Part shown: piece after piece, positions 8,816 through 18,697 of the stretch
Position numbering within the stretch: the stretch's first letter is position 1
Layout of the letters: every line of letters starts with the position of its first letter
Source of the DNA: Vicinamibacterales bacterium
Lineage (GTDB): Bacteria > Acidobacteriota > Vicinamibacteria > Vicinamibacterales > 2-12-FULL-66-21
Direction of reading: 5' to 3'
Assembly: GCA_035637115.1 (NCBI GenBank)
Contig: DASPXV010000108.1
Coordinates: forward strand, 6,386 to 70,385
DNA length: 64,000 nt
Program-made: the position numbers and the translations under genes
Notes under the pieces: generated by a model
The model's input: the letters and a program-made list of their open reading frames with translations, nothing else
The model's database searches: none
Told to the model about the DNA's origin: nothing

Positions 8816-10705
8816 TTGGCGAAGAAGGTAGCGAGGCCGGCGACTGCGACGCCGCGCCGAGAGCTTGACTCGCAGTTGTTGCGGCGCGTCATCGTCGAAG
8901 GCGTCACGCCGCAGGTGGACGAGGGGCGGTATCCCGCGAAGCGGACCGTCGGCGAAGACGTGGTCGTCGAGGCTGATGTGTACGCCGACGGGCACGATGT
9001 CATCGCGGCAGTGCTGCTGTGGCGCAAGCAAGGGGACGCGAAGTGGCGCGAAACGCGGATGGCGCCGCTCGGCAACGATCGGTTTCGTGCGTCATTCAAG
9101 GCGGAACGCGAGTTCGCCACCTACGAGTTCACGATCGAGGGCTGGGTCGATCGTCGCGAGACGTGGAGGCAGGGACTCGAAAAGAAGATCGCCGCCGGCC
9201 AGGACGTCACCAGCGAGCGGCTCGAAGAGAAGCTGCTGCCGAAGGATGCCGGCCGCAGCGCAGGAACACGGTACGAGCGCGTGCTCTCCGTGATTGTCGA
9301 ACGTGAGCGCGCGCGTTTCGGCGCCTGGTACGAAATGTTCCCGCGCTCCGCGGGAACCGACCCTACGCGAAGCGCCACGTTCGCCGAGGCGCAGCGGCTC
9401 CTTCCGTACGTCGCCGCGATGGGATTCGACGTGCTGTATCTCGCGCCCATTCACCCGATCGGCCGCAGCTTCCGCAAGGGGCGCAACAACGCGCTGACGC
9501 CCGAGCCTGGCGATCCGGGGAGCCCGTGGGCGATTGGTGCGGAAGAAGGGGGGCACACGGCAATCGATCCCGGACTCGGCACGCTGGCCGATTTCGAGAA
9601 GTTCGTGAAGGCCGCGAAGAAACACGGACTCGAGATCGCCCTCGATATCGCGTACCAGGCGTCACCGGATCATCCGTACGTGAAGGAACACCCGGCCTGG
9701 TTCCGCCATCGTCCTGACGGAACCATCAAGTACGCGGAGAACCCGCCGAAGAAATACCAGGACATCTATCCATTCGATTTCGAGTCCGACGATTGGCCGG
9801 CGCTCTGGCTCGAACTGAAGCGGGTGATCGAGTTCTGGATCGGGCGCGGCGTCGCGATCTTCCGCGTCGACAATCCGCACACGAAGCCATTCGGGTTCTG
9901 GGAATGGGCGCTTGGCGACATTCGCCGCGCGCATCCCGAAACGATTTTCCTTGCCGAAGCGTTCACGCGGCCGAAGATCATGCGGCACCTCGCGAAGATC
10001 GGCTTCTCGCAGTCGTACTCGTACTTCACATGGCGGAATACCAAGGACGAACTCGAGGAGTACTTCACCGAGCTCACCGGGACGGACGTGCGTGACTACA
10101 TGCGTCCCAACCTGTTTGCGAACACGCCCGACATCCTTCACGAGTACCTGCAGAAGGGGGGCCGTCCCGCGTTCGAAGTGCGCCTGATGCTCGCGGCAAC
10201 GCTCGGCGCAAACTACGGGATCTACAGCGGGTTCGAGCTCTGCGAGAACGTGCCGGTAAAGGAAGGCAGCGAAGAGTACCTGGACTCGGAGAAATACCAG
10301 ATCAAGCCCCGGGATTTCCAGCAGGCCGATAGCCTCAGCGAGCTGATCGCGAGGATCAACGGCATCCGCCGCGCGCATCCGTCACTGCAGTTCGATCGCG
10401 GCCTCGAGTTTCACGAAACCGACAACCCGCAGTTGATTTGCTACTCGAAGCGCGCGCCCGATGACACCGATCCGATCCTGGTTATCGTCAATCTGGATCC
10501 CCTGAACATGCAGCACGGCCACGTCAAGCTGCCGTTATTTGACTGGAAGCTGCCGCTCGATTCGATCGTCGAAGCGGAAGATCTCCTGTGGGAAGAAACC
10601 TATACGTGGCGCGGCGAGTGGAATTACGTTCGCCTCGATCCGCAGTCGCGCGTCGCCCACGTGCTCGCGCTGCGGCTGCCGGAGCCCGTCGACGCCAATG
10701 AGTGA
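8816..10705 (+). CDS. glgE: alpha-1,4-glucan:maltose-1-phosphate maltosyltransferase GlgE
   Basis: 629 aa. VIVEGVTPQVDEGRYPAKRTVGEDVVVEADVYADGHD is the GlgE N-domain signature. FRVDNPHTKPFGFWEW and GFSQSYSYFTWRN motifs are present. TTG start 4 nt after the glgX stop. Confidence 0.9.
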   Translation: MAKKVARPATATPRRELDSQLLRRVIVEGVTPQVDEGRYPAKRTVGEDVVVEADVYADGHDVIAAVLLWRKQGDAKWRETRMAPLGNDRFRASFKAEREFATYEFTIEGWVDRRETWRQGLEKKIAAGQDVTSERLEEKLLPKDAGRSAGTRYERVLSVIVERERARFGAWYEMFPRSAGTDPTRSATFAEAQRLLPYVAAMGFDVLYLAPIHPIGRSFRKGRNNALTPEPGDPGSPWAIGAEEGGHTAIDPGLGTLADFEKFVKAAKKHGLEIALDIAYQASPDHPYVKEHPAWFRHRPDGTIKYAENPPKKYQDIYPFDFESDDWPALWLELKRVIEFWIGRGVAIFRVDNPHTKPFGFWEWALGDIRRAHPETIFLAEAFTRPKIMRHLAKIGFSQSYSYFTWRNTKDELEEYFTELTGTDVRDYMRPNLFANTPDILHEYLQKGGRPAFEVRLMLAATLGANYGIYSGFELCENVPVKEGSEEYLDSEKYQIKPRDFQQADSLSELIARINGIRRAHPSLQFDRGLEFHETDNPQLICYSKRAPDDTDPILVIVNLDPLNMQHGHVKLPLFDWKLPLDSIVEAEDLLWEETYTWRGEWNYVRLDPQSRVAHVLALRLPEPVDANE

Positions 10706-13700
10706 TTGGTTTAAAGACGCGATCATCTACGAGGCGCATGTCCGCGCCTTTTTCGACAGCAATAACGACGGGATCGGTGATTTCCCGGGGCTCACGAGCA
10801 AGCTGGATTACCTGCAGGCGCTCGGCATCAACGCGCTGTGGCTGCTGCCCTTCTATCCCTCGCCGCTGCGCGACGACGGGTACGACATCGCGGACTATGA
10901 GGGCGTCCATCCCAGCTACGGCACGATTCAGGACTTCGAGCGCTTCATGGACGAAGCGCACAGGCGCGGGATCCGCGTCATCACCGAGCTCGTTATCAAT
11001 CACACGTCCGATCAGCATCCGTGGTTCCAGGCCGCGCGACGTGCTCCCGCGGGATCGCCCGAACGCGAGTTCTACGTCTGGAGCGAGACGAAGCAGAAGT
11101 ACCAGGGCGTCCGCATCATCTTCACCGACAGCGAGACGTCGAACTGGTCGTGGGACGACGCGGCTGGGGCGTACTACTGGCATCGCTTCTTCCATCACCA
11201 GCCGGATCTGAACTTCGACAATCCGAACGTGCTCGACGCGGTTCTCAAGACGATGAACGTCTGGGTCGATCGCGGCGTCGACGGGCTGCGGCTCGACGCG
11301 GTGCCGTACCTGATCGAACGCGAAGGGACGATCTGCGAGAACCTCGAAGAAACGCACGCGATCCTCAGGAAGATCCGCCGCGCGATGGACGAGCGCTACA
11401 ACGACCGGATGCTGATCGCGGAAGCGAACCAGTGGCCGGCGGACGTGCGGCCGTACTTCGGCGACGGCGACGAATGCCACATGGCATTCCACTTTCCGCT
11501 CATGCCTCGCATCTTCATGGCGCTGCGCCAGGAAGACCGCCACCCGATTACCGAGATCCTGCGGCAGACGCCGGAGATCCCCGAGAACTCCCAGTGGGGA
11601 CTCTTCCTGCGGAATCACGACGAGCTGACGCTCGAAATGGTGACGGACGAAGAGCGCGACTACATGTACCAGGCGTACGCAGCCGATCCGCGGATGCGCA
11701 TCAACGTCGGCATCCGGCGGCGGCTCGCGCCGCTCGTCGAAAACAGCCGCAGGCAAATCGAACTGCTGCACTCGCTGCTGTTCTCGTTTCCGGGGACGCC
11801 CGTCATCTATTACGGCGACGAGATCGGCATGGGGGACAACATCTATCTCGGCGACCGCAACGGTGTTCGCACGCCGATGCAATGGACCAGCGATCGCAAC
11901 GCCGGCTTCTCGCGCACCGATCCGGCGCAGCTCTACGCGCCGCCGATCATGGACCCCGTCTATGGCTACCAGGCGATCAACGTCGAGGCGCAGGAACGTT
12001 CCCCGTTCTCGCTCCTGAACTGGATGAAGCGGTTGATCGCGCTGCGCAAGCAGTTGAAGGTGTTCGGCCGCGGTACGCTCGAATTTGTCCCGAGCGCCAA
12101 TCGCAAGATCCTGACGTACGTGCGCGCCTTCGAAGGAGAAACTGTGCTGTGTGTGGCGAATCTCTCACGCACGGTGCAGCCGGTGGAACTGGATCTGTCG
12201 AGATTCAAAGGCATGACGCCGGTCGAAATGCTCGGCCTGACGGAGTTTCCGCGCATCGGCGAGGTGCCGTATTTCCTCACTCTCCCCGGTTACAACTTCT
12301 ACTGGTTCCGCCTGCAGGCGCAGCCGTCGTCGATTACCGGGCAACGCCTGTCCGACGCGGGGACGTCCTCCGACGACATCAGGGCGTCGCTGCCGGCGTT
12401 CTTCATGGGCGTCGCATGGGACACGCTGCTGGACGGCAACGTCCGGACGCTGATCGAGCGCGAGTCGCTCGTGCCATTCCTCCAGCGGCAGCGATGGTTC
12501 GGCGGCAAGGCTCGGCCGATCCGCGCGGCGCATTTCCTCGACTGGGGTCCCGTCCGCCGCGGTTCCGATCCACTGTTCGCAACGATCGTCGAAGTGGATT
12601 ACCAGGACGGCGGCCGCGAGCGCTATTTCCTTCCGCTCGGCGCGGCCAAGGGCGCCCATGTCGATGCGACGATGGCGTCCGCGCCGCAGCTCGCCCTCGC
12701 ACGGCTGACGGGCGCAAGAAAAGGCGTGGTGATCGATGCGACGGTGGACGAGCGATACGGCGCTGCGCTGCTCGAATCGTTCGACAAGCTTGAATCGATT
12801 CCGCTGAAACGCGGCGTGCTGCGCCCGCGCCGTACGGATCCGTACGAACAACTGCGTGGAGATGGACCTCTCGCCATGCGCCGGATCGGCGCCGAGCAGA
12901 GCAACTCGTCTCTCGCGTTCGGCGACCGGCTGATCGTCAAGCTGTTCAGGCGCATTGAAGACGGACCAAACCCGGACGTCGAGATCGGCGAGCACCTGAC
13001 GGCGCACACGGCGTTCAGGCGCTCGCCACAGGTGGCGGCGTGGCTCGAGTACGAAAGCCCGGGGGCCATCGCACACATCGCCGTCGCACAGCAGTTCGTC
13101 GCGAGCCAGGCGGACGGATGGCAGCACGCGCTCGGCGAGCTCGATCGCTTCTACGAAGAAGTGGAGCTGAGGCCGGAGCCGGGAATCGACCTGCTCGGCC
13201 CGGAGCCGCTGCTGGATCTCGCGGCCATGCTGACGCCGCAAGCGATCCGCGAGGTGTCGGGCGCCTATATCGACAGCGCGCAGATGCTCGGCCGCCGCAC
13301 TGCGGAACTGCACATCGCGCTGGCAAGCGACACGCGGACCCAGGCGTTCGCACCGGAACCGTTTGCGCGCGACGACTACGCGCGCCTGCTGGCGGATGCG
13401 ATCGGCCAGGCGCGGCGAGCGTCAGAGTTGCTCGGCGGCCGCGCGGCGACGCTGCCGCAGGACGTTGCGTCCAGCTCGCGAAGCGCGGTCGAACAAGCGG
13501 AGCAGGCACTTCACGCGCGGCACATGGCTCACACCGCGAAGCCGTTCGACGTGACGACGTCGCGCACGCGCGTGCATGGCGACTATCACCTCGGGCAGGT
13601 GCTGTGGTCGGAGGGGGACTTCTACATCCTGGATTTTGAGGGGGAACCCTCGCGTCCGCTCGCCGCGCGCCGTGTCAAGGATTTGCCGCTCAAGGATATT

Positions 13701-14015
13701 GCCGGGATGTTGCGGTCGTTCAGTTACGCGGCGTACGCGGCGCTGTTCGTCCGCGCCGCGGGACGAGAGCCGGATTTCGAGCGTCTCGATTCGTGGGCGC
13801 AGGTCTGGGCGCGATGGGCAGGGGCGGCGTTCCTGAAGGGATACCTCGCAGCCGCCGGCGACGCGCCGTTGCTGCCCGCCGATCGCGTTCAGCGTGGAAC
13901 GCTGCTCGATCTCTATTTAATCGACAAGGCGCTGTACGAGCTGAACTACGAGTTGAACAACCGGCCGGACTGGGTCCGGATTCCGCTGCGCGGCCTCGCG
14001 GATCTTCTTTCATGA
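10698..14015 (+). CDS. treS: trehalose synthase / maltokinase fusion (TreS-Pep2)
   Basis: N-terminal half: MSDWFKDAIIYEAHVRAFFDSNNDGIGDF, LDAVPYL, EANQWP, FLRNHDELTLEMV (TreS). C-terminal about 450 aa: RVHGDYHLGQVLWSEGDFYILDFEGEP (maltokinase/aminoglycoside-kinase-like). ATG at 10698 overlaps the glgE stop (ATGAGTGA). Confidence 0.9.
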   Translation: MSDWFKDAIIYEAHVRAFFDSNNDGIGDFPGLTSKLDYLQALGINALWLLPFYPSPLRDDGYDIADYEGVHPSYGTIQDFERFMDEAHRRGIRVITELVINHTSDQHPWFQAARRAPAGSPEREFYVWSETKQKYQGVRIIFTDSETSNWSWDDAAGAYYWHRFFHHQPDLNFDNPNVLDAVLKTMNVWVDRGVDGLRLDAVPYLIEREGTICENLEETHAILRKIRRAMDERYNDRMLIAEANQWPADVRPYFGDGDECHMAFHFPLMPRIFMALRQEDRHPITEILRQTPEIPENSQWGLFLRNHDELTLEMVTDEERDYMYQAYAADPRMRINVGIRRRLAPLVENSRRQIELLHSLLFSFPGTPVIYYGDEIGMGDNIYLGDRNGVRTPMQWTSDRNAGFSRTDPAQLYAPPIMDPVYGYQAINVEAQERSPFSLLNWMKRLIALRKQLKVFGRGTLEFVPSANRKILTYVRAFEGETVLCVANLSRTVQPVELDLSRFKGMTPVEMLGLTEFPRIGEVPYFLTLPGYNFYWFRLQAQPSSITGQRLSDAGTSSDDIRASLPAFFMGVAWDTLLDGNVRTLIERESLVPFLQRQRWFGGKARPIRAAHFLDWGPVRRGSDPLFATIVEVDYQDGGRERYFLPLGAAKGAHVDATMASAPQLALARLTGARKGVVIDATVDERYGAALLESFDKLESIPLKRGVLRPRRTDPYEQLRGDGPLAMRRIGAEQSNSSLAFGDRLIVKLFRRIEDGPNPDVEIGEHLTAHTAFRRSPQVAAWLEYESPGAIAHIAVAQQFVASQADGWQHALGELDRFYEEVELRPEPGIDLLGPEPLLDLAAMLTPQAIREVSGAYIDSAQMLGRRTAELHIALASDTRTQAFAPEPFARDDYARLLADAIGQARRASELLGGRAATLPQDVASSSRSAVEQAEQALHARHMAHTAKPFDVTTSRTRVHGDYHLGQVLWSEGDFYILDFEGEPSRPLAARRVKDLPLKDIAGMLRSFSYAAYAALFVRAAGREPDFERLDSWAQVWARWAGAAFLKGYLAAAGDAPLLPADRVQRGTLLDLYLIDKALYELNYELNNRPDWVRIPLRGLADLLS

Positions 14016-15931
14016 CCCGCACGCCTCGTGAGCCGGTGTTCGGCGCCGTCCCGCTCGCCAATGGGGGCGTCCGGTTTCGCGTGTGGGCCCCCACCGCATC
14101 GGGGGTGGATCTGCATCTGCGGCGTCCCGGGGGTCAGGTCTGCGTTTCGCCCCTGCGGGGTGCCAGGTCTGCGGGCATCGATGACCCGCAGACCGGGCAC
14201 CCGGAAGGGGCGAAACGCAGACCTGACCCCGGGATCTGGGAGCTCCTCGTCCCCGACACGAGGACGGGCGACCACTACGCGTTCGCGGTCGATGGCGGGC
14301 CGCCGCGCCCCGATCCCGCCGGACGCTTCCTGCCCGACGGCGTGCACGGCTGGTCCGAGGTGATCGACCCGCGCGCGTTCGCGTGGACGGATGCCGCGTG
14401 GAACGGCCTCGATCCGCGGCGCGCGGTCATCTACGAGCTGCACGTCGGGACGTTCTCCCCGGAAGGCACCTTTCGTGGCGCTGCAGCCAGACTTCCCCAT
14501 CTTCGCAACCTCGGGATAACCGCGATCGAACTGATGCCCGTCGCGGACTTCGCCGGGCGCCGCAACTGGGGCTACGACGGCGTCGCGATGTTCGCGCCCG
14601 CGCATGGGTACGGAAGTCCCGACGACCTCCGCGCGCTCGTCGACACCGCGCACGCTCATGGCATCGGCGTGATCCTCGACGTGGTCTACAACCATCTCGG
14701 ACCGGAAGGCGCGTACCTCCCCGAGCTGAGCCCCTTGTTTCTGACCGACAAGCACTCCACGCCATGGGGGGACGCCGTCAACCTCGACGACGAGGGAAGC
14801 AGCGGCGTGCGCGCGTTCCTCACGGACAACGCGCTGCACTGGGTCGACGAGTACCACATGGACGGACTGCGGCTCGACGCGACGCATTCGCTCCACGACT
14901 CGCGCGACCGCCACTTTGTCGCAGAGCTTGCGGAAGCCGTCCACGCCAGCACGGATCCGCCGCCGGTCGTGTATGCGGAGGATCATCGCAACCTGTCGAC
15001 GATGCTGAATGCGCCGGACCACGGCGGCTGGAATCTCGATGGCGTGTGGGCGGACGATTTTCATCACGTCGTGCGCCGGATGGTCGGCGGTGACAGCCAC
15101 GGCTACTACGTCGATTACGAGGGTACCGCGGCGGAACTGGCCGCGACGCTGCGCCAGGGCTGGCTCTTCGTCGGCCAACATTCCGTGCACCAGCGCGGCG
15201 CCCGCGGGACGGATCCCTCCAGCGTCCCGCTGCGCAAGGCGATCGTCTGCGTCCAGAACCACGATCAGGTCGGCAACCGCGCGCTCGGCGATCGACTGCA
15301 CCACACGATCGATGCCGCATCGTGGCGTGCCGCCGTGACGGTGCTGCTCACCGCGCCCATGACCCCTCTGCTCTTCATGGGTCAGGAATGGGCGACGTCG
15401 GCGCCATTTCAGTTCTTCACCGACTTCGAAACTTCTCTCGGGGATCTCGTCTTCCACGGTCGACGGCAGGAGTTCAAGGCATTTCCGCAGTTCGCGACCG
15501 CAGAAGGCGCGCGGCGTGTTCCCAATCCACAAGCGGAGAGCACATTCGAGGCAAGCCGCCTGCGCTGGGACGAGCTCGATCGTCCGGATCACGCGCGCGT
15601 GCTCGCGCTTCATCGCGCGTTGCTGCGGCTCCGCCGGGAGTACGCGTTCATGCGCGCGAGCGATGCGTGCGATGCCGACGCGCAATCAATAGGCGGCGAC
15701 ACGGTCGTCTTCCGCCGCGGCAGCGAAGATGCCGGTTCTGCGCTCGTCGTCGTCAGACTTCGCGGATGCGGGTTGGTGAACGTGCCCGCCATGGCGAACG
15801 CGCAGGCCACGTTGCTCGACACTGAAGACGCGGCGTTTGCGGGCGATCCGCGCCCCGCCCGCATCCATCCGGCTGATGGCGCGATCGAATTCGCGCGTCC
15901 CGGCGCGCTCGTCGTCGCGGAGCGCACGTAG
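14012..15931 (+). CDS. treZ: malto-oligosyltrehalose trehalohydrolase TreZ
   Basis: VRFRVWAP start of the E-set domain; [45 protein letters not shown] motifs. ATG 14012 overlaps the treS stop (ATGA). Carries an extra 36-codon palindromic segment (next feature). Confidence 0.88.
   Translation: MTRTPREPVFGAVPLANGGVRFRVWAPTASGVDLHLRRPGGQVCVSPLRGARSAGIDDPQTGHPEGAKRRPDPGIWELLVPDTRTGDHYAFAVDGGPPRPDPAGRFLPDGVHGWSEVIDPRAFAWTDAAWNGLDPRRAVIYELHVGTFSPEGTFRGAAARLPHLRNLGITAIELMPVADFAGRRNWGYDGVAMFAPAHGYGSPDDLRALVDTAHAHGIGVILDVVYNHLGPEGAYLPELSPLFLTDKHSTPWGDAVNLDDEGSSGVRAFLTDNALHWVDEYHMDGLRLDATHSLHDSRDRHFVAELAEAVHASTDPPPVVYAEDHRNLSTMLNAPDHGGWNLDGVWADDFHHVVRRMVGGDSHGYYVDYEGTAAELAATLRQGWLFVGQHSVHQRGARGTDPSSVPLRKAIVCVQNHDQVGNRALGDRLHHTIDAASWRAAVTVLLTAPMTPLLFMGQEWATSAPFQFFTDFETSLGDLVFHGRRQEFKAFPQFATAEGARRVPNPQAESTFEASRLRWDELDRPDHARVLALHRALLRLRREYAFMRASDACDADAQSIGGDTVVFRRGSEDAGSALVVVRLRGCGLVNVPAMANAQATLLDTEDAAFAGDPRPARIHPADGAIEFARPGALVVAERT
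14126..14233. repeat. 108-bp imperfect palindrome (nested hairpin) lying in-frame inside treZ
   Basis: Arms CCCGGGGGTCAGGTCTGCGTTTCGCCCCT...AGGGGCGAAACGCAGACCTGACCCCGGG, with an inner pair GGTGCCAGGTCTGCGGG/CCCGCAGACCGGGCACC. Symmetric about CATCGATG (centre 14179/14180). By hand alignment roughly nine in ten positions pair. Confidence 0.85.
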
Positions 15932-18697
15932 ATGAAGCGGCCCCGCTTCGTTCCTGCAAGCACCTATCGATTGCAGGTGCATGCGCGGTTCACTCTCGTC
16001 TCGGCGCGGGAGATCGTTCCCTACCTTCAGCGGCTCGGGATCGACGCGGTGTATACGTCGCCGTATTTCGCCGCCGAGCCCGGGAGCACGCACGGATACG
16101 ACGTCACGAATCACAACGTGATTAACCCGGAAGTGGGCGGCGCCGAAGCCCACACGGCCTTCACGGATTCGGTGCGTGCAGCAGGCATGCAGCACATCGT
16201 CGACTTCGTGCCGAACCACATGGGGATCAGTACGGCGACCAATCCGTGGTGGCGCGAGGTGCTGGCGAATGGTCCCGAGGCTCCGTCGGCGCGTTTCTTC
16301 GACATCGACTGGAACCCGTTCAAGACGGAACTGCGCCGCAAGCTCCTGCTGCCGATCCTGGGGGATCAGTACGGCAACGTGCTCGATCGCGGCGAGCTGC
16401 AGCTGAATCTGATCGACGGCCAGCTCGTACTGAAGTACTTCGATCACCGCCTCCCCATCAACCCGCGGGATATTCCGGAGCTGCAGGGGCTCGCCGAGAT
16501 GGCCCCCGATGCCGCGGCGAGGGTGATCGCGGAATTCAACGGCACGCCTGGAGACCCGCGGTCGTTCGATCGCCTGCACGAACTGCTGGAAGCGCAGGCG
16601 TTCAGGCTTTCGTACTGGCGGACGGCGGCGCACGAGATCAACTACCGGCGCTTCTTCGATGTGAACTCTCTCGCCGGTCTGCGGGTCGAAGACGAGCATG
16701 TATTCGCGGCAATTCACAGGCTCCTCGCGACGCTGCTGCAAGAGGAGCGCGTGACTGGCGTGCGCATCGATCACCCCGACGGCCTCTTCGATCCTGCAAA
16801 GTACTTCGAAATGCTGCAATCGCTGGCGGTCCAGGCGTGGAGCAGGGAGCGCCGTCCCGGTTCGCGCACGCTCTACGTCGTCTGCGAGAAGATCCTGTCC
16901 GGACGGGAGCGGTTGCCGTCCGGGTGGTGCGTCCATGGCACGACCGGCTACAACTTCCTCAACCAGGTGAACGGTCTGTTCGTGCAGCCGGGCCACGCGC
17001 GGCGCATGCGGCGCACTTACGCGAAGCTCACCGGCCGGACGCAGAGTTTCGACGACCTGCTGTACGAAACCAAACGGCTGATCATGGACACGTCGATGGC
17101 GAGCGAGCTCACGGTGCTCGCGCACATGCTGGATCGGATCGGCGAGACCAACCGCAAGTCTCGCGACTTCACGCTGAACAGCGTCCGCGACATGCTCGTC
17201 GAAGTGGTCGCGTGCTTTCCTGTGTATCGCACTTACGTGAACGAGCAGGGATGGGCGCCAGACGACCGGGCGGCGCTGGAGCGCGCCATCGTTCGCGCGC
17301 GGCGGCGCAACCCCGCAATGGACCCGACGATCTTCGATTTCTTCCGCGAGGTGATGTTTCCCCGCGATCCTTCCGACGTGCCGGTTTCGGGACAGGAACG
17401 GCGTGAAGGCTATCCGCCTGTCGACGCAGAGGAAGCGGCCGCGCGGCTCCGGTTCGCGATGAAATTCCAGCAGTACACGGGGCCGCTGCAGGCGAAAGGA
17501 CTCGAGGACACGGGGTTCTATCGCAACAACGTGCTCATCTCGCTCAATGAAGTCGGCGGCGATCCTTCCCGGTTCGGGTTGCCGGCATCCGACTTCCATG
17601 CGTTGAACCTGCTTCGCCGCCAGGAGTGGCCCTACGAGATGATCGCCACGTCAACGCACGACACGAAGCTTGGCGAGGACGTGCGCGCACGAATTAACGT
17701 CCTGTCTGAAATACCCGGCGAGTGGGAGCGCGAGGCGGCGAAGTGGATGCGAACCAACAAGAATCTCCGCACACTCGTCGACGGCGAGCCGGCACCCGAC
17801 AGGAACGATGAGTATCGCTTTTATCAGGCGCTGCTCGGCATCTGGCCCGACGCGGACCGCCCGGTGGACGATCTCGTTGAGCGCCTGCAGCAGTACATGA
17901 TCAAGGCGGTCAAGGAAGCGAAGCTCCATTCGAGCTGGATCAATCCGAACGATGGCTACGAGCGCGCCGTCTCGACATTCGTCGAGCGCGCGTTATCAGG
18001 CCCCGGCGCCGACAGATTCCTCCCCGCCTTCATCCCGTTCCAGCAACGCATAGCGCGTGGCGGTCTCGTCAACTCGTTGGCGCAGACGCTGCTGAAAATT
18101 GCGTCTCCCGGAGTTCCGGACTTCTACCAGGGCTCGGAGCTCTGGGATTTCAACCTGGTGGATCCCGACAACCGGCGACCGGTGGATTTCGATGTCCGGC
18201 GAGCGTTGCTCGAAGAAGTCGAGGCGGTGCTCGGCCTGCCGGTGGACGAGCGCGCCGCGCGAATCAAGGCGTTCACGCAGAACTGGAGTAACGGCGTGGT
18301 CAAGCTCCTGGTCACGACCGCGGGCCTGCGCCTTCGCGCGCAGATGACGGACGTCTTCCTCGAAGGGGATTACCTTCCGCTCGATGTGGAACCGACTGTT
18401 GAAGGGCGCGCGATTGCGTTCGCGCGATTCTCGCCTGGCGGCCGCGCGGTCATTGCCGTCGCGCCACACCTGGCTTTTGCACTCCTATCAGCAGAACGGC
18501 CCCTGCCTCTGGGCGACATGTGGCGCACGTCGCGCATCATGCTCCCGCCGGGCCTCGCGGCGCTGACCTTCACCGACGCGATCACCGGCGCCGCCGTCAA
18601 ACCCGTGACGGCGGCGTCGGGATCCTGGCTGTTCGTGGGCCAGACGTTCGACTTGTTGCCGGTCGCTCTCTTGGTTGCAGTAGAGCGTAAACAGTAG
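15932..18697 (+). CDS. treY: malto-oligosyltrehalose synthase TreY
   Basis: 921 aa. STYRLQVHARFTLVSAREIVPYLQRLGIDAVYTSPYF, DFVPNHMG, GVRIDHPDGL, TSTHDTKLGEDVRARI motifs. ATG immediately follows the treZ stop. Confidence 0.9.
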   Translation: MKRPRFVPASTYRLQVHARFTLVSAREIVPYLQRLGIDAVYTSPYFAAEPGSTHGYDVTNHNVINPEVGGAEAHTAFTDSVRAAGMQHIVDFVPNHMGISTATNPWWREVLANGPEAPSARFFDIDWNPFKTELRRKLLLPILGDQYGNVLDRGELQLNLIDGQLVLKYFDHRLPINPRDIPELQGLAEMAPDAAARVIAEFNGTPGDPRSFDRLHELLEAQAFRLSYWRTAAHEINYRRFFDVNSLAGLRVEDEHVFAAIHRLLATLLQEERVTGVRIDHPDGLFDPAKYFEMLQSLAVQAWSRERRPGSRTLYVVCEKILSGRERLPSGWCVHGTTGYNFLNQVNGLFVQPGHARRMRRTYAKLTGRTQSFDDLLYETKRLIMDTSMASELTVLAHMLDRIGETNRKSRDFTLNSVRDMLVEVVACFPVYRTYVNEQGWAPDDRAALERAIVRARRRNPAMDPTIFDFFREVMFPRDPSDVPVSGQERREGYPPVDAEEAAARLRFAMKFQQYTGPLQAKGLEDTGFYRNNVLISLNEVGGDPSRFGLPASDFHALNLLRRQEWPYEMIATSTHDTKLGEDVRARINVLSEIPGEWEREAAKWMRTNKNLRTLVDGEPAPDRNDEYRFYQALLGIWPDADRPVDDLVERLQQYMIKAVKEAKLHSSWINPNDGYERAVSTFVERALSGPGADRFLPAFIPFQQRIARGGLVNSLAQTLLKIASPGVPDFYQGSELWDFNLVDPDNRRPVDFDVRRALLEEVEAVLGLPVDERAARIKAFTQNWSNGVVKLLVTTAGLRLRAQMTDVFLEGDYLPLDVEPTVEGRAIAFARFSPGGRAVIAVAPHLAFALLSAERPLPLGDMWRTSRIMLPPGLAALTFTDAITGAAVKPVTAASGSWLFVGQTFDLLPVALLVAVERKQ

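What the first reader, a model, noticed from the sequence alone, without database searches (positions are those of the whole stretch)
14126..14233. 108-bp near-perfect palindrome inserted in-frame inside treZ
The segment is exactly 36 codons long and symmetric around CATCGATG. It has a long outer stem (GGGTCAGGTCTGCGTTTCGCCCCT / AGGGGCGAAACGCAGACCTGACCC) and an inner stem. It encodes RPGGQVCVSPLRGARSAGIDDPQTGHPEGAKRRPDPG within the N-terminal E-set/CBM48-like domain, between VDLHL and IWELLVP. With it, treZ is about 639 aa, longer than I expect for this enzyme. This looks like a REP/MITE-type palindromic element that landed in a surface loop without breaking the frame. Alternatively it is an mRNA structure regulating translation between treS and treY.
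Basis: seen in the sequence. Interest (0 to 1): 0.6.

Follow-up and report, generated by a model that had tools for sequence, protein, structure and literature searches.

The report
Translated hairpin repeat inside treZ
A 108-base DNA hairpin repeat that normally sits between genes lies in frame in a floppy loop of a trehalose-pathway enzyme gene of a soil acidobacterium; this is a known kind of event, but related bacteria carry old or different hairpin repeats at the same spot.

Summary
Window 14126-14233 is a near-perfect 108-bp palindrome with 49-nt arms that are 92% complementary. Its RNA folding energy is -111.5 kcal/mol (z = -13). It fills exactly codons 39-74 of treZ.

The segment is one complete copy (A-B-loop-B'-A') of a dispersed hairpin repeat family, unit GGGGTCAGGTCTGyAAATCGCCC, with about 100 units at about 30 loci. 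A RAYT-like Y1/HUH transposase gene on contig C131 is bracketed by arrays of the same unit. That transposase fits the published TIRYT/TIRtron type, whose inverted repeats carry a GGGGWSAS motif.

The insert is real: an independent metagenome contig has it base for base. A second in-frame copy sits in fmt.

Deep-branching TreZ homologs have an 18-19 aa loop at this position. One derived clade has loops of 14-48 aa that carry decayed copies of this repeat, or a different palindromic repeat, at the same spot.

AlphaFold places the left arm (VCVSP) as a confident beta-strand. Residues 51-70 are modelled as disordered.

I found nothing that supports a treZ-specific regulatory hairpin, though it is not excluded.

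In-frame REP/RPE insertions are already published, and this scan has reported them on other DNA. This is a new member of a known kind, of modest interest.

The parts
14012..15931 (+). treZ (malto-oligosyltrehalose trehalohydrolase, GH13 with an N-terminal CBM48), 639 aa. The ATG overlaps the stop of the upstream gene (ATGA).
   Evidence: Translation. Pfam CBM_48, Alpha-amylase and DUF3459. PDB 2BHU TreZ at E 1.5e-140. AF2 model with mean pLDDT 93.2, Foldseek TM 0.92 to 2BHU. Orthologs start MTRAPR.P.FGA.
14126..14233 (.). The complete 108-bp hairpin element (A-B-loop-B'-A'), equal to codons 39-74 of treZ. It encodes PGGQVCVSPLRGARSAGIDDPQTGHPEGAKRRPDPG.
   Evidence: It is identical in an independent contig.
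14130..14153 (+). Outer left unit A, GGGGTCAGGTCTGCGTTTCGCCCC. It is a member of the genome-wide family with consensus GGGGTCAGGTCTGyAAATCGCCC. It encodes GGQVCVSP, and the model makes VCVSP (residues 43-47) a beta-strand.
   Evidence: Family consensus. AF2 strand 43-47, with residues 41-50 at mean pLDDT 96.
14157..14175 (+). Inner left unit B, GGGGTGCCAGGTCTGCGGG. The GGTGCCAGGTCT variant is the innermost unit in most full-length copies.
   Evidence: Comparison of 12 full-length copies.
14176..14184 (.). Centre of symmetry and apical loop, CATCGATG plus A.
14185..14202 (+). Inner right unit B', CCCGCAGACCGGGCACCC, the imperfect complement of B.
14207..14230 (+). Outer right unit A', GGGGCGAAACGCAGACCTGACCCC, the perfect complement of A. 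It encodes GAKRRPDP.
10539..14015 (+). Upstream gene, a TreS-maltokinase fusion. The ORF is taken as listed and the true start was not determined.
   Evidence: Pfam Alpha-amylase, Malt_amylase_C, Mak_N_cap and APH.
15932..18697 (+). Downstream 921-aa GH13 gene in the position treY (malto-oligosyltrehalose synthase) holds in this operon.
   Evidence: Pfam Alpha-amylase only. The same gene order is seen in ortholog loci.

Best explanation
The palindrome is one complete copy of a miniature hairpin-forming mobile element of this Vicinamibacterales-type acidobacterial genome.

Element and family. The element consists of a 24-nt unit A (GGGGTCAGGTCTGyAAATCGCCC), a shorter variant unit B (GGTGCCAGGTCT), a loop, and the two units again in inverted order. 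About 100 units lie at about 30 loci, always as forward units followed by reverse units. Nearly all are between genes.

Likely mobilising enzyme. This is a RAYT-like Y1/HUH tyrosine transposase of the TIRYT type on contig C131. Arrays of the same unit bracket the gene. By analogy with REPIN-RAYT and IS200/IS605 systems, it would act on the folded single-stranded repeat.

The treZ copy. This copy lies in frame in the CBM48 N-domain of TreZ and is most likely translated straight through. The left arm supplies a beta-strand (VCVSP). The remaining residues, about 50-70, form a disordered excursion. The catalytic GH13 core is untouched. The element is therefore a tolerated passenger that adds about 20 residues.

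The site. Deep-branching TreZ homologs have an 18-19 aa loop here. One derived clade shows decayed copies of this family, fresh-looking copies of this family, or a different palindromic repeat at the same position. The loop therefore appears to have been colonised long ago and remodelled repeatedly.

Shown: the palindrome, family membership, the transposase flanked by the units, the open frame, presence in independent assemblies, and the ortholog loop states.

Inferred: mobilisation by this transposase, translation, structural tolerance, and the order of events.
For: - Palindrome and energy.
- Dispersed family: 48 BLAST matches in the genome. There are 83 exact GGTCAGGTCTG cores against 2 expected. 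There are 103 fuzzy matches to the 23-mer consensus against 0-5 for shuffled consensus sequences. A profile scan finds 39 clusters, in which forward units precede reverse units (two loci repeat the block in tandem).
- Shared layout: at least 12 full-length copies have the same A-B-loop-B'-A' architecture, each folding at -65 to -110 kcal/mol.
- Transposase: Pfam Y1_Tnp at 50.7-53.2 bits. The 297-aa ORF carries NHSHLV, YVLMNPV and WRWSSY motifs. Units +++- lie upstream and --- overlap its 3' end.
- TIRYT type: the unit starts GGGGTCAG, which fits the GGGGWSAS motif of TIRYT-flanking repeats described with an Acidobacteria-specific group (PMC3733652; PMC6006769).
- Lineage-restricted family: 60 strict matches in G000, 14 in G010, 6 in G015 and 0-1 in 38 other relatives. 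Only one other GTDB species was hit.
- Coding status: the element is in frame and stop-free, and 2 of its 3 plus-strand frames are open. The element is identical in an independent contig.
- Intact enzyme: GH13 motifs LRLDA, AEDHRN and NHDQ are conserved. The AF2 model has mean pLDDT 93.2, with only residues 51-70 low, and TM 0.92 to TreZ 2BHU.
- Second in-frame copy in fmt: orthologs have about 12 aa at that site, and G004 carries the same family there.
- Ortholog loops: L153 has a perfect 19-nt inverted repeat CCCCGGGGGTCAGGTCTGC/GCAGACCTGACCCCCGGGG at the same site. L066, L068 and L152 have 15-16-nt arms that are 87-88% complementary. L154 has a different nested repeat.
- Homology is at nucleotide level: the right arm is read in different frames in G000 (RRPDPG) and in L065, L066 and L068 (SADP/SADL).
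- Tree: all deep branches have 18-19 aa loops, and loop types are intermixed in one derived clade.
Against: - No experiment or read data show that the element moves, that this transposase moves it, or that the segment is translated.
- The transposase scores 67.5 bits on NCBIfam REP_Tyr_transpos, below the 80-bit cut-off, and has no relative in the PDB by sequence.
- The single unit is not self-complementary and carries no GTAG or CGTC tag, so it is not a canonical REP.
- A profile of the unit does not score the ortholog remnants significantly (best E = 3.1 in 386 kb). Homology of the decayed copies therefore rests on position, short inverted repeats and peptide motifs.
- The element does not behave as a clean 36-codon insertion. 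RR plus 8 residues plus PL aligns without gaps to the ancestral loop, so the left arm may have overwritten native codons instead of being added.
- The treZ copy has the most perfect arms of the 12 full-length copies compared (0.93), yet shares its unusual CGTTT spacer with orthologs. Its age is therefore ambiguous.
Confidence: 0.82

Rival explanations
1. The hairpin is kept because it works as an RNA or DNA structure. For example, it could protect the upstream treS-mak message from 3' exonucleases, slow ribosomes early in treZ to set the TreS:TreZ:TreY ratio, or act as a binding site for the transposase.
For: The stem is extremely stable and lies 115 nt into treZ in a translationally coupled operon. 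The treZ copy has the best arm match of the 12 full-length copies compared (0.93). Its private spacer variant is compensated in the other arm (CGTTT/AAACG), while the left-arm variant is shared with orthologs. Hairpins of two unrelated sequence families occupy the same site in different lineages. Published work holds that many REPs act as RNA elements (PMC3733652).
Against: There is no Rfam family, only spurious miRNA-shaped hits far below threshold. No T-tail follows the stem. The same kind of insert occurs in fmt and, for another repeat family, in a TonB-receptor gene, so it is not specific to the trehalose operon. Many orthologs have let the arms decay or lost the insert. Across copies, arm identity within a copy (0.80) is no higher than between copies (0.78).
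Confidence: 0.1
2. The element is the same, but it arrived differently. The left arm was not inserted. Native codons of the beta-strand were overwritten by repeat sequence through gene conversion or template switching against an adjacent inserted right half, so only about 60-80 nt were truly added.
For: RRPGGQVCVSPL aligns without gaps to ancestral RRGSRVESHQPL. The net gain is about 20 aa, not 36. The model treats VCVSP as a confident native-like strand. P0081 read from its true start has a 20-aa loop, SGAVCTMPLQRCA, resembling the repeat-coded peptide.
Against: The treZ copy has the full canonical architecture and length of free-standing copies such as C69:11929-12035, which is what a whole-element insertion gives. 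Insertion followed by deletion of redundant native residues explains the same data. Loops up to 48 aa exist.
Confidence: 0.2
3. It is not a mobile element. It is a local inverted duplication or slippage product of native treZ sequence, or an assembly artefact.
For: Palindromes can arise by template switching. The window comes from a fragmented metagenome-assembled genome (254 contigs, 85% complete).
Against: About 100 units of the same sequence lie elsewhere in the genome, with a cognate transposase. The element is identical in an independent metagenome contig and is encoded in three assemblies.
Confidence: 0.02
4. The segment is not translated. Ribosomes hop from the CCC GGG at its start to the CCC GGG at its end, as with the bypassed GC-rich hairpin inserts of some yeast mitochondria and phage T4 gene 60 (comparison from my own knowledge).
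For: Identical CCCGGG words flank the stem, and the stem is very stable.
Against: The treZ and fmt inserts are both in frame and stop-free. Orthologs keep the region in frame while the stem decays. Skipping would leave about 4 residues where every homolog has at least 14 and would remove a beta-strand.
Confidence: 0.01

Closest known systems
TIRtrons: TIRYT (TIR-associated tyrosine transposase) genes with dispersed TIR repeats (Di Nocera et al. 2013, PMC3733652); TnpA-REP subclass 2.1 of Quentin et al. 2018 (PMC6006769)
   Same: A RAYT-like Y1/HUH transposase is flanked by inverted repeats that begin with GGGGWSAS (here GGGGTCAG). The repeats also occur around the genome as dimers and clusters. 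An Acidobacteria-specific TIRYT group is described.
   Different: This is a new sequence family in an uncultured Vicinamibacterales-type lineage. The flanks are arrays of 3-4 units, not single TIRs. The free copies have a two-tier A-B-loop-B'-A' layout. The C-terminal HTH expected for subclass 2.1 is only weakly indicated (LacI HTH, E = 0.04). I did not align the protein with the published TIRYTs.
REPIN-RAYT systems (Bertels and Rainey 2011, PMC3116915; E. coli and Pseudomonas REP/BIME)
   Same: Inverted doublets of a short repeat form long hairpins and are mostly extragenic. A dedicated HUH transposase gene is flanked by the repeats. The family is lineage-restricted.
   Different: The single unit is not itself a palindrome and has no GTAG or CGTC tag. 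The transposase is below the NCBIfam RAYT cut-off (67.5 against 80 bits). Four Y1_Tnp genes are present in the genome, not one.
Intragenic REPs and Rickettsia palindromic elements (Ogata et al. 2000, cited in PMC10969869; Di Nocera et al. 2013)
   Same: A palindromic repeat sits in frame inside a conserved enzyme gene, adds 20-40 residues and leaves the protein apparently functional. Dimers and grouped repeats encoding 20-80 aa are reported.
   Different: I did not test for sequence relation to RPEs and claim none. The host is a free-living soil acidobacterium. The same loop also carries decayed copies or a different repeat family across a whole clade of orthologs, and part of the repeat encodes a regular beta-strand.

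Membership tests
TIRYT/TIRtron (RAYT-like transposase with GGGGWSAS inverted repeats) | Y1/HUH transposase domain with an HUH motif and a catalytic tyrosine | tested here: met
   Pfam Y1_Tnp at 50.7-53.2 bits against a cut-off of 23. NHSHLV and YVLMNPV were read in the ORF L061:1459-2352.
TIRYT/TIRtron (RAYT-like transposase with GGGGWSAS inverted repeats) | Gene flanked by inverted repeats that carry GGGGWSAS | tested here: met
   Units GGGGTCAGGTCTG lie at L061:1229-1377 (+++-) and L061:2331-2417 (---), the latter overlapping the stop codon. The motif definition comes from PMC3733652 and PMC6006769.
TIRYT/TIRtron (RAYT-like transposase with GGGGWSAS inverted repeats) | The flanking repeat is also a dispersed family, as dimers or clusters | tested here: met
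   There are 83 exact cores against 2 expected, and 39 clusters in the profile scan, about 30 of them with two or more units.
TIRYT/TIRtron (RAYT-like transposase with GGGGWSAS inverted repeats) | C-terminal helix-turn-helix domain (subclass 2.1) | tested here: inconclusive
   Only a LacI-type HTH at E = 0.041 and 14 bits on LEEIARCAGLSAKTVAKVVN.
Canonical REP/REPIN-RAYT | Each repeat unit is a 20-40-nt imperfect palindrome tagged by GTAG or CGTC | tested here: not met
   The unit consensus GGGGTCAGGTCTGyAAATCGCCC has neither tag and is not self-complementary. Hairpins arise only from inverted pairs.
Canonical REP/REPIN-RAYT | Inverted doublets form hairpins and are mostly extragenic | tested here: met
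   Clusters run forward units then reverse units, and most multi-unit clusters fold far better than shuffles (typically z -5 to -21). Among the multi-unit clusters I found only two (treZ and fmt) inside long coding frames, judged by ORF span and third-position G+C, not by gene calls.
Canonical REP/REPIN-RAYT | The transposase reaches the curated RAYT model (NCBIfam NF047646 equivalog) | tested here: not met
   67.5 bits against a cut-off of 80.
In-frame protein-coding palindromic elements (RPE-like, intragenic REPs) | A member of a dispersed palindromic repeat family lies inside a conserved ORF, in frame and stop-free, with orthologs lacking it | tested here: met
   Codons 39-74 of treZ. Deep-branching orthologs have 18-19 aa loops. 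The second case is fmt.
In-frame protein-coding palindromic elements (RPE-like, intragenic REPs) | The inserted residues are actually translated and the protein is functional | not testable with these tools
   The evidence is indirect only: conserved frame in strains and orthologs, intact catalytic motifs and a confident fold.
TreZ (GH13 malto-oligosyltrehalose trehalohydrolase) | CBM48 plus GH13 catalytic domain with the Asp-Glu-Asp motifs, a TreZ fold, and the treS/treY neighbourhood | tested here: met
   Pfam. LRLDA, AEDHRN and NHDQ are conserved in 27-87 homologs. 2BHU at E 1.5e-140 and TM 0.92. Neighbouring genes.

The most novel reading that the evidence does not exclude
This loop of TreZ, and likewise one loop of Fmt, is a long-lived landing pad. 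Successive hairpin repeat families insert there, decay and replace one another, possibly because old repeat remnants attract the transposase. Repeat-encoded residues have been taken over as a structural beta-strand of the CBM48 sandwich. In G000 the stem is kept near-perfect by selection or by hairpin-templated repair, not by recent arrival.
Probability: 0.25. Interest if true: 0.55.

Novelty: new member of a known kind. Interest (0 to 1): 0.35.

Why it matters
This is a clear, well-anchored case of selfish hairpin DNA being read as protein in a free-living soil bacterium, outside the Rickettsia and Proteobacteria examples. It links a TIRYT-type transposase to an abundant repeat family in the Vicinamibacterales.

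It also shows a practical consequence. Loop lengths in conserved enzymes of these genomes vary because of repeat insertions. This affects gene calling, alignment and structure prediction.

The recurrent use of one loop across a clade gives a natural series for asking two questions: whether such repeats target their own remnants, and how quickly inserted peptides are trimmed or co-opted.

The event type itself is already published (PMC3733652; Ogata 2000), and this scan has reported in-frame REPs repeatedly on other DNA. The finding therefore extends known biology and does not change it.

Tried and rejected
These served only as background sequence for the profile scan.
- A profile HMM of the unit did not detect the ortholog remnants above noise. 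I do not claim statistical homology for the decayed copies.
- I suspected that the two arms of each copy evolve in concert. Across 12 full copies, within-copy arm identity (0.80) is about equal to between-copy identity (0.78), so I rejected this as a general rule. Only treZ, C69 and fmt show private compensated spacers.
- The closest genome, G010 (TreZ 71% identical), lacks the N-terminal part of treZ in its assembly, so the nearest empty or filled site could not be seen.
- DNA for P0016 (class 2 loop) was not retrievable. P0014 was used instead.
- Several other clusters that lie in long open frames proved to be upstream of the real start or in non-coding frames: C131:12581, C29, C247, C156, C145, C126 and C69.
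- Rfam returned only generic long-hairpin miRNA models far below threshold.
- Predicting the structure without the segment was not possible, because edited sequences may not be submitted.
- Translational bypass and local inverted duplication were considered and rejected (see rival explanations).
Full report
**1. The observation**

The sequence at window 14126-14233 is a 108-bp near-perfect palindrome. The repeat finder gives arms at 14127-14175 and 14185-14233. Each arm is 49 nt, they are 92% complementary, and they are 9 nt apart around CATCGATG.

The 23-nt outer stem and its perfect complement are the only two matches in the window at up to 3 mismatches. None is expected by chance. As RNA the region folds at -111.5 kcal/mol, against -59.7 +/- 4.0 for shuffles (z = -13).

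The treZ frame starts at ATG 14012, which overlaps the upstream stop as ATGA, and runs to 15931 (639 aa). The palindrome is exactly codons 39-74 and has no stop. Two of its three plus-strand frames are open.

Pfam finds CBM_48, the GH13 catalytic domain and DUF3459. The neighbours are a TreS-maltokinase fusion upstream and a 921-aa GH13 gene downstream.

**2. It is real, not an assembly artefact**

The protein collection holds three 639-aa versions from separate sources, each 638/639 identical. An independent JGI metagenome contig (L181) differs from the window at 8 of 4920 bases. None of these lies in the element.

**3. It belongs to a dispersed repeat family**

- The window's genome is 5.65 Mb in 254 contigs, 65% G+C and 85% complete.
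- A search of the genome with the 121-bp region gives 48 matches on many contigs.
- The repeated unit is about 24 nt, with consensus CCCgGGGGTCAGGTCTGyAAATCGCCC. Its 11-mer core occurs 83 times against 2 expected.
- The 23-mer consensus has 103 matches at up to 5 substitutions. Shuffled consensus sequences give 0-5.
- A profile scan groups the units into 39 clusters. Forward units are always followed by reverse units (++--, +++--, up to +++------), so each cluster is a nested hairpin. Most multi-unit clusters fold far better than shuffled sequence.
- At least 12 loci share one layout of 95-125 nt: unit A, a short variant unit B (GGTGCCAGGTCT), a loop, B', A'. The treZ segment is a complete copy of this layout.
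- The closest full copy, C69:11929-12035, is 79% identical.
- The usual habitat is intergenic, often starting a few bases after a stop codon.

**4. A cognate transposase**

Pfam Y1_Tnp hits four places in the genome. The best hit, on contig C131, is a 297-aa ORF (L061:1459-2352) with NHSHLV (HUH), YVLMNPV and WRWSSY motifs. Units +++- lie directly upstream (L061:1229-1377). Units --- overlap its stop codon (L061:2331-2417).

NCBIfam's RAYT model matches at 67.5 bits, below its 80-bit cut-off.

Di Nocera et al. (PMC3733652) describe RAYT-like 'TIRYT' genes flanked by inverted repeats that share GGGGWSAS. Those repeats sometimes form dispersed families organised as dimers or clusters, and the paper describes a sharply defined Acidobacteria group. 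Quentin et al. (PMC6006769) equate these with TnpA-REP subclass 2.1 and give the same GGGG[AT][CG]A[CG] motif. The unit here starts GGGGTCAG, so the system fits that description.

It does not fit canonical REPs. The unit has no GTAG or CGTC tag and is not self-complementary.

The family is lineage-restricted. A strict pattern gives 60 hits in G000, 14 in G010, 6 in G015 and 0-1 in 38 other relatives. A scan of all GTDB species genomes finds it in only one other genome, an Acidobacteriota MAG with arrays of up to 4+8 units.

**5. What the insert does to TreZ**

Solved TreZ structures have 12 residues where G000 has 37 (2BHU). Family-level and deeper homologs have an 18-19 aa loop such as RRGSRVESHQPLKDDEGI. 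The net gain is therefore about 20 residues, not 36.

An AlphaFold2 model built on 87 homologs has mean pLDDT 93.2. It makes residues 43-47 (VCVSP, encoded by the left arm) a beta-strand within a block of mean pLDDT 96. Only residues 51-70 are left at pLDDT 50-56. The next strand is 75-80. The model superposes on D. radiodurans TreZ with TM 0.92. The GH13 catalytic motifs are conserved.

The enzyme therefore looks intact. The repeat supplies one strand plus a disordered excursion. The high confidence for the strand may partly reflect how the alignment places repeat-coded residues over native ones.

**6. The same loop in relatives**

I compared the loop between L36 and W76 across 118 homologs. 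It is 18-19 aa in all of the more distant proteins and 14-48 aa in the closer ones.

- One peptide class (GGQVC[VI].DLAP...ADLTPG) is the translation of this repeat family. At DNA level, L153 (59% identical N-terminal region) has a perfect 19-nt inverted repeat CCCCGGGGGTCAGGTCTGC/GCAGACCTGACCCCCGGGG at the same position. L066, L068 and L152 keep 15-16-nt arms that are 87-88% complementary. L065 keeps both arms in recognisable form.
- The right arm is read in a different frame in G000 (RRPDPG) than in L065, L066 and L068 (SADP/SADL). What is shared is therefore nucleotide sequence, not peptide.
- A second class (PAASYQLPAPGSQLPAGSRKPEAG) corresponds in L154 to a different nested inverted repeat, GCTTCCAGCTG.../...CTGGAAGC.
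- Short forms of 16 aa show no inverted repeat, though L149 retains CTCAGACCTGATCCCGGG.

I built a FastTree tree with the loop masked. All deep branches have the 18-19 aa state. Repeat-bearing, short and ancestral-length forms are intermixed inside one derived clade. The tree is midpoint-rooted and I did not examine branch supports, so it is only indicative.

The simplest reading is an old colonisation followed by repeated remodelling in place, or recurrent insertion at a favoured site. The data do not separate these two.

A unit profile does not score the decayed remnants significantly. That part of the argument therefore rests on position, short inverted repeats and peptide motifs.

**7. It is not specific to treZ**

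A scan of all clusters for spanning open frames with a coding signature on both sides found one more solid case. This is fmt (methionyl-tRNA formyltransferase) on C243, where a ++- cluster plus an inner hairpin encodes about 46 residues. Orthologs have about 12 residues there. G004 carries peptides of the same repeat family at the same site (PGVRSAN...FADLTPG), and G001 and G032 carry other inserts.

This pattern argues for tolerated passengers in permissive loops, not for a trehalose-specific regulator.

**8. The regulatory alternative**

The hairpin lies 115 nt into treZ in a translationally coupled operon and would be a formidable RNA structure. However:
- it matches no Rfam family beyond spurious miRNA-shaped hits;
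- it has no T-tail;
- its counterparts in orthologs have been allowed to decay.

The points in its favour are circumstantial. The treZ copy has the best arm match of the 12 full copies compared (0.93). Its unusual spacer CGTTT is mirrored as AAACG in the other arm, while similar T-rich spacers occur in the orthologs' left arms. Across copies there is no general excess of within-copy over between-copy arm identity (0.80 against 0.78). I give this reading about 10%.

**9. How it got there**

Whole-element insertion followed by trimming of native residues, and partial overwriting of native codons by repeat sequence, both fit the data.
- The full canonical architecture favours insertion.
- The gap-free RR+8+PL alignment with the ancestral loop, and the 20-aa loop of P0081 (SGAVCTMPLQRCA), favour overwriting.

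Local duplication, assembly error and ribosomal bypass are rejected (see rival explanations).

**10. Comparison with known systems, and verdict**

In-frame palindromic repeats in conserved genes are established. Examples are Rickettsia RPEs (Ogata 2000, cited in PMC10969869) and intragenic GTAG/CGTC REPs encoding 20-82 residues (PMC3733652). This scan has reported many in-frame REP cases on other DNA.

The present case is a new family of the TIRYT/TIRtron kind, with in-frame copies in treZ and fmt. The added observation is a clade-wide hotspot in one loop. I rate it a new member of a known kind, with interest about 0.35.

Noticed in passing
G000 contig C243:43001-43143 (outside the window; locus L155): Second in-frame copy of the same repeat family. 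It lies inside fmt (methionyl-tRNA formyltransferase) and encodes about 46 residues (LGVRSANRPNPGVRSADRPDTGARARDSALAPGKGRSADLTPGRPGT). Orthologs have about 12 residues there. G004 has the same family at the same site.
   Followed up: partly
G000 contig C131:41799-42987 (locus L061:1229-2417): A 297-aa Y1/HUH (TIRYT-type) transposase gene bracketed by arrays of the repeat unit. The upstream gene's last residues and stop codon (…PGSGL*) are supplied by the first unit (GGGGTCAGGTCTGTAA).
   Followed up: partly
G000 contig C59, minus strand, upstream of the motif LAGQVVDARTG: A TonB-dependent receptor has about 26 residues after its signal peptide encoded by a related but different repeat (GGGGTCAAACC/GGGGTCAGACC tandem plus inverted copies). 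The lead came from earlier finding e1-2327905.
   Followed up: partly
G000 genome-wide: Several other abundant short repeat families. One is a GTAG-tagged REP-like hairpin (GTAGCTTCCGCCTTCAGGCGGAAGC; its 14-mers occur 50-78 times). Others are heptamer arrays CAACTGG/CCAGTTG (about 90) and AAACGGGGACTGTCCCC (about 50). Three further Y1_Tnp genes (C34, C45, C206) may serve some of them.
   Followed up: no
L154:980-1125 (TreZ ortholog P0014) and peptide loops of P0004, P0016, P0029, P0034 and P0068: A different palindromic repeat (GCTTCCAGCTG/CAGCTGGAAGC; peptides PAASYQLPA…SRKPEAG) occupies the same TreZ loop in another sublineage. TGDWQLE-type peptides there resemble the CAACTGG heptamer family.
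   Followed up: partly
L175 and L176 (Acidobacteriota MAG GS_EKS_MAG_00030, probably G010): The same repeat family forms very large nested arrays (5 forward plus 4 reverse units, 4 plus 8). Several contigs of that assembly end inside such arrays.
   Followed up: no
L151:870-1000 (ortholog P0081): The gene call for this TreZ ortholog starts too late. The frame continues upstream to MTRAPRRPVFGA…, so the database protein of 580 aa is N-terminally truncated.
   Followed up: yes
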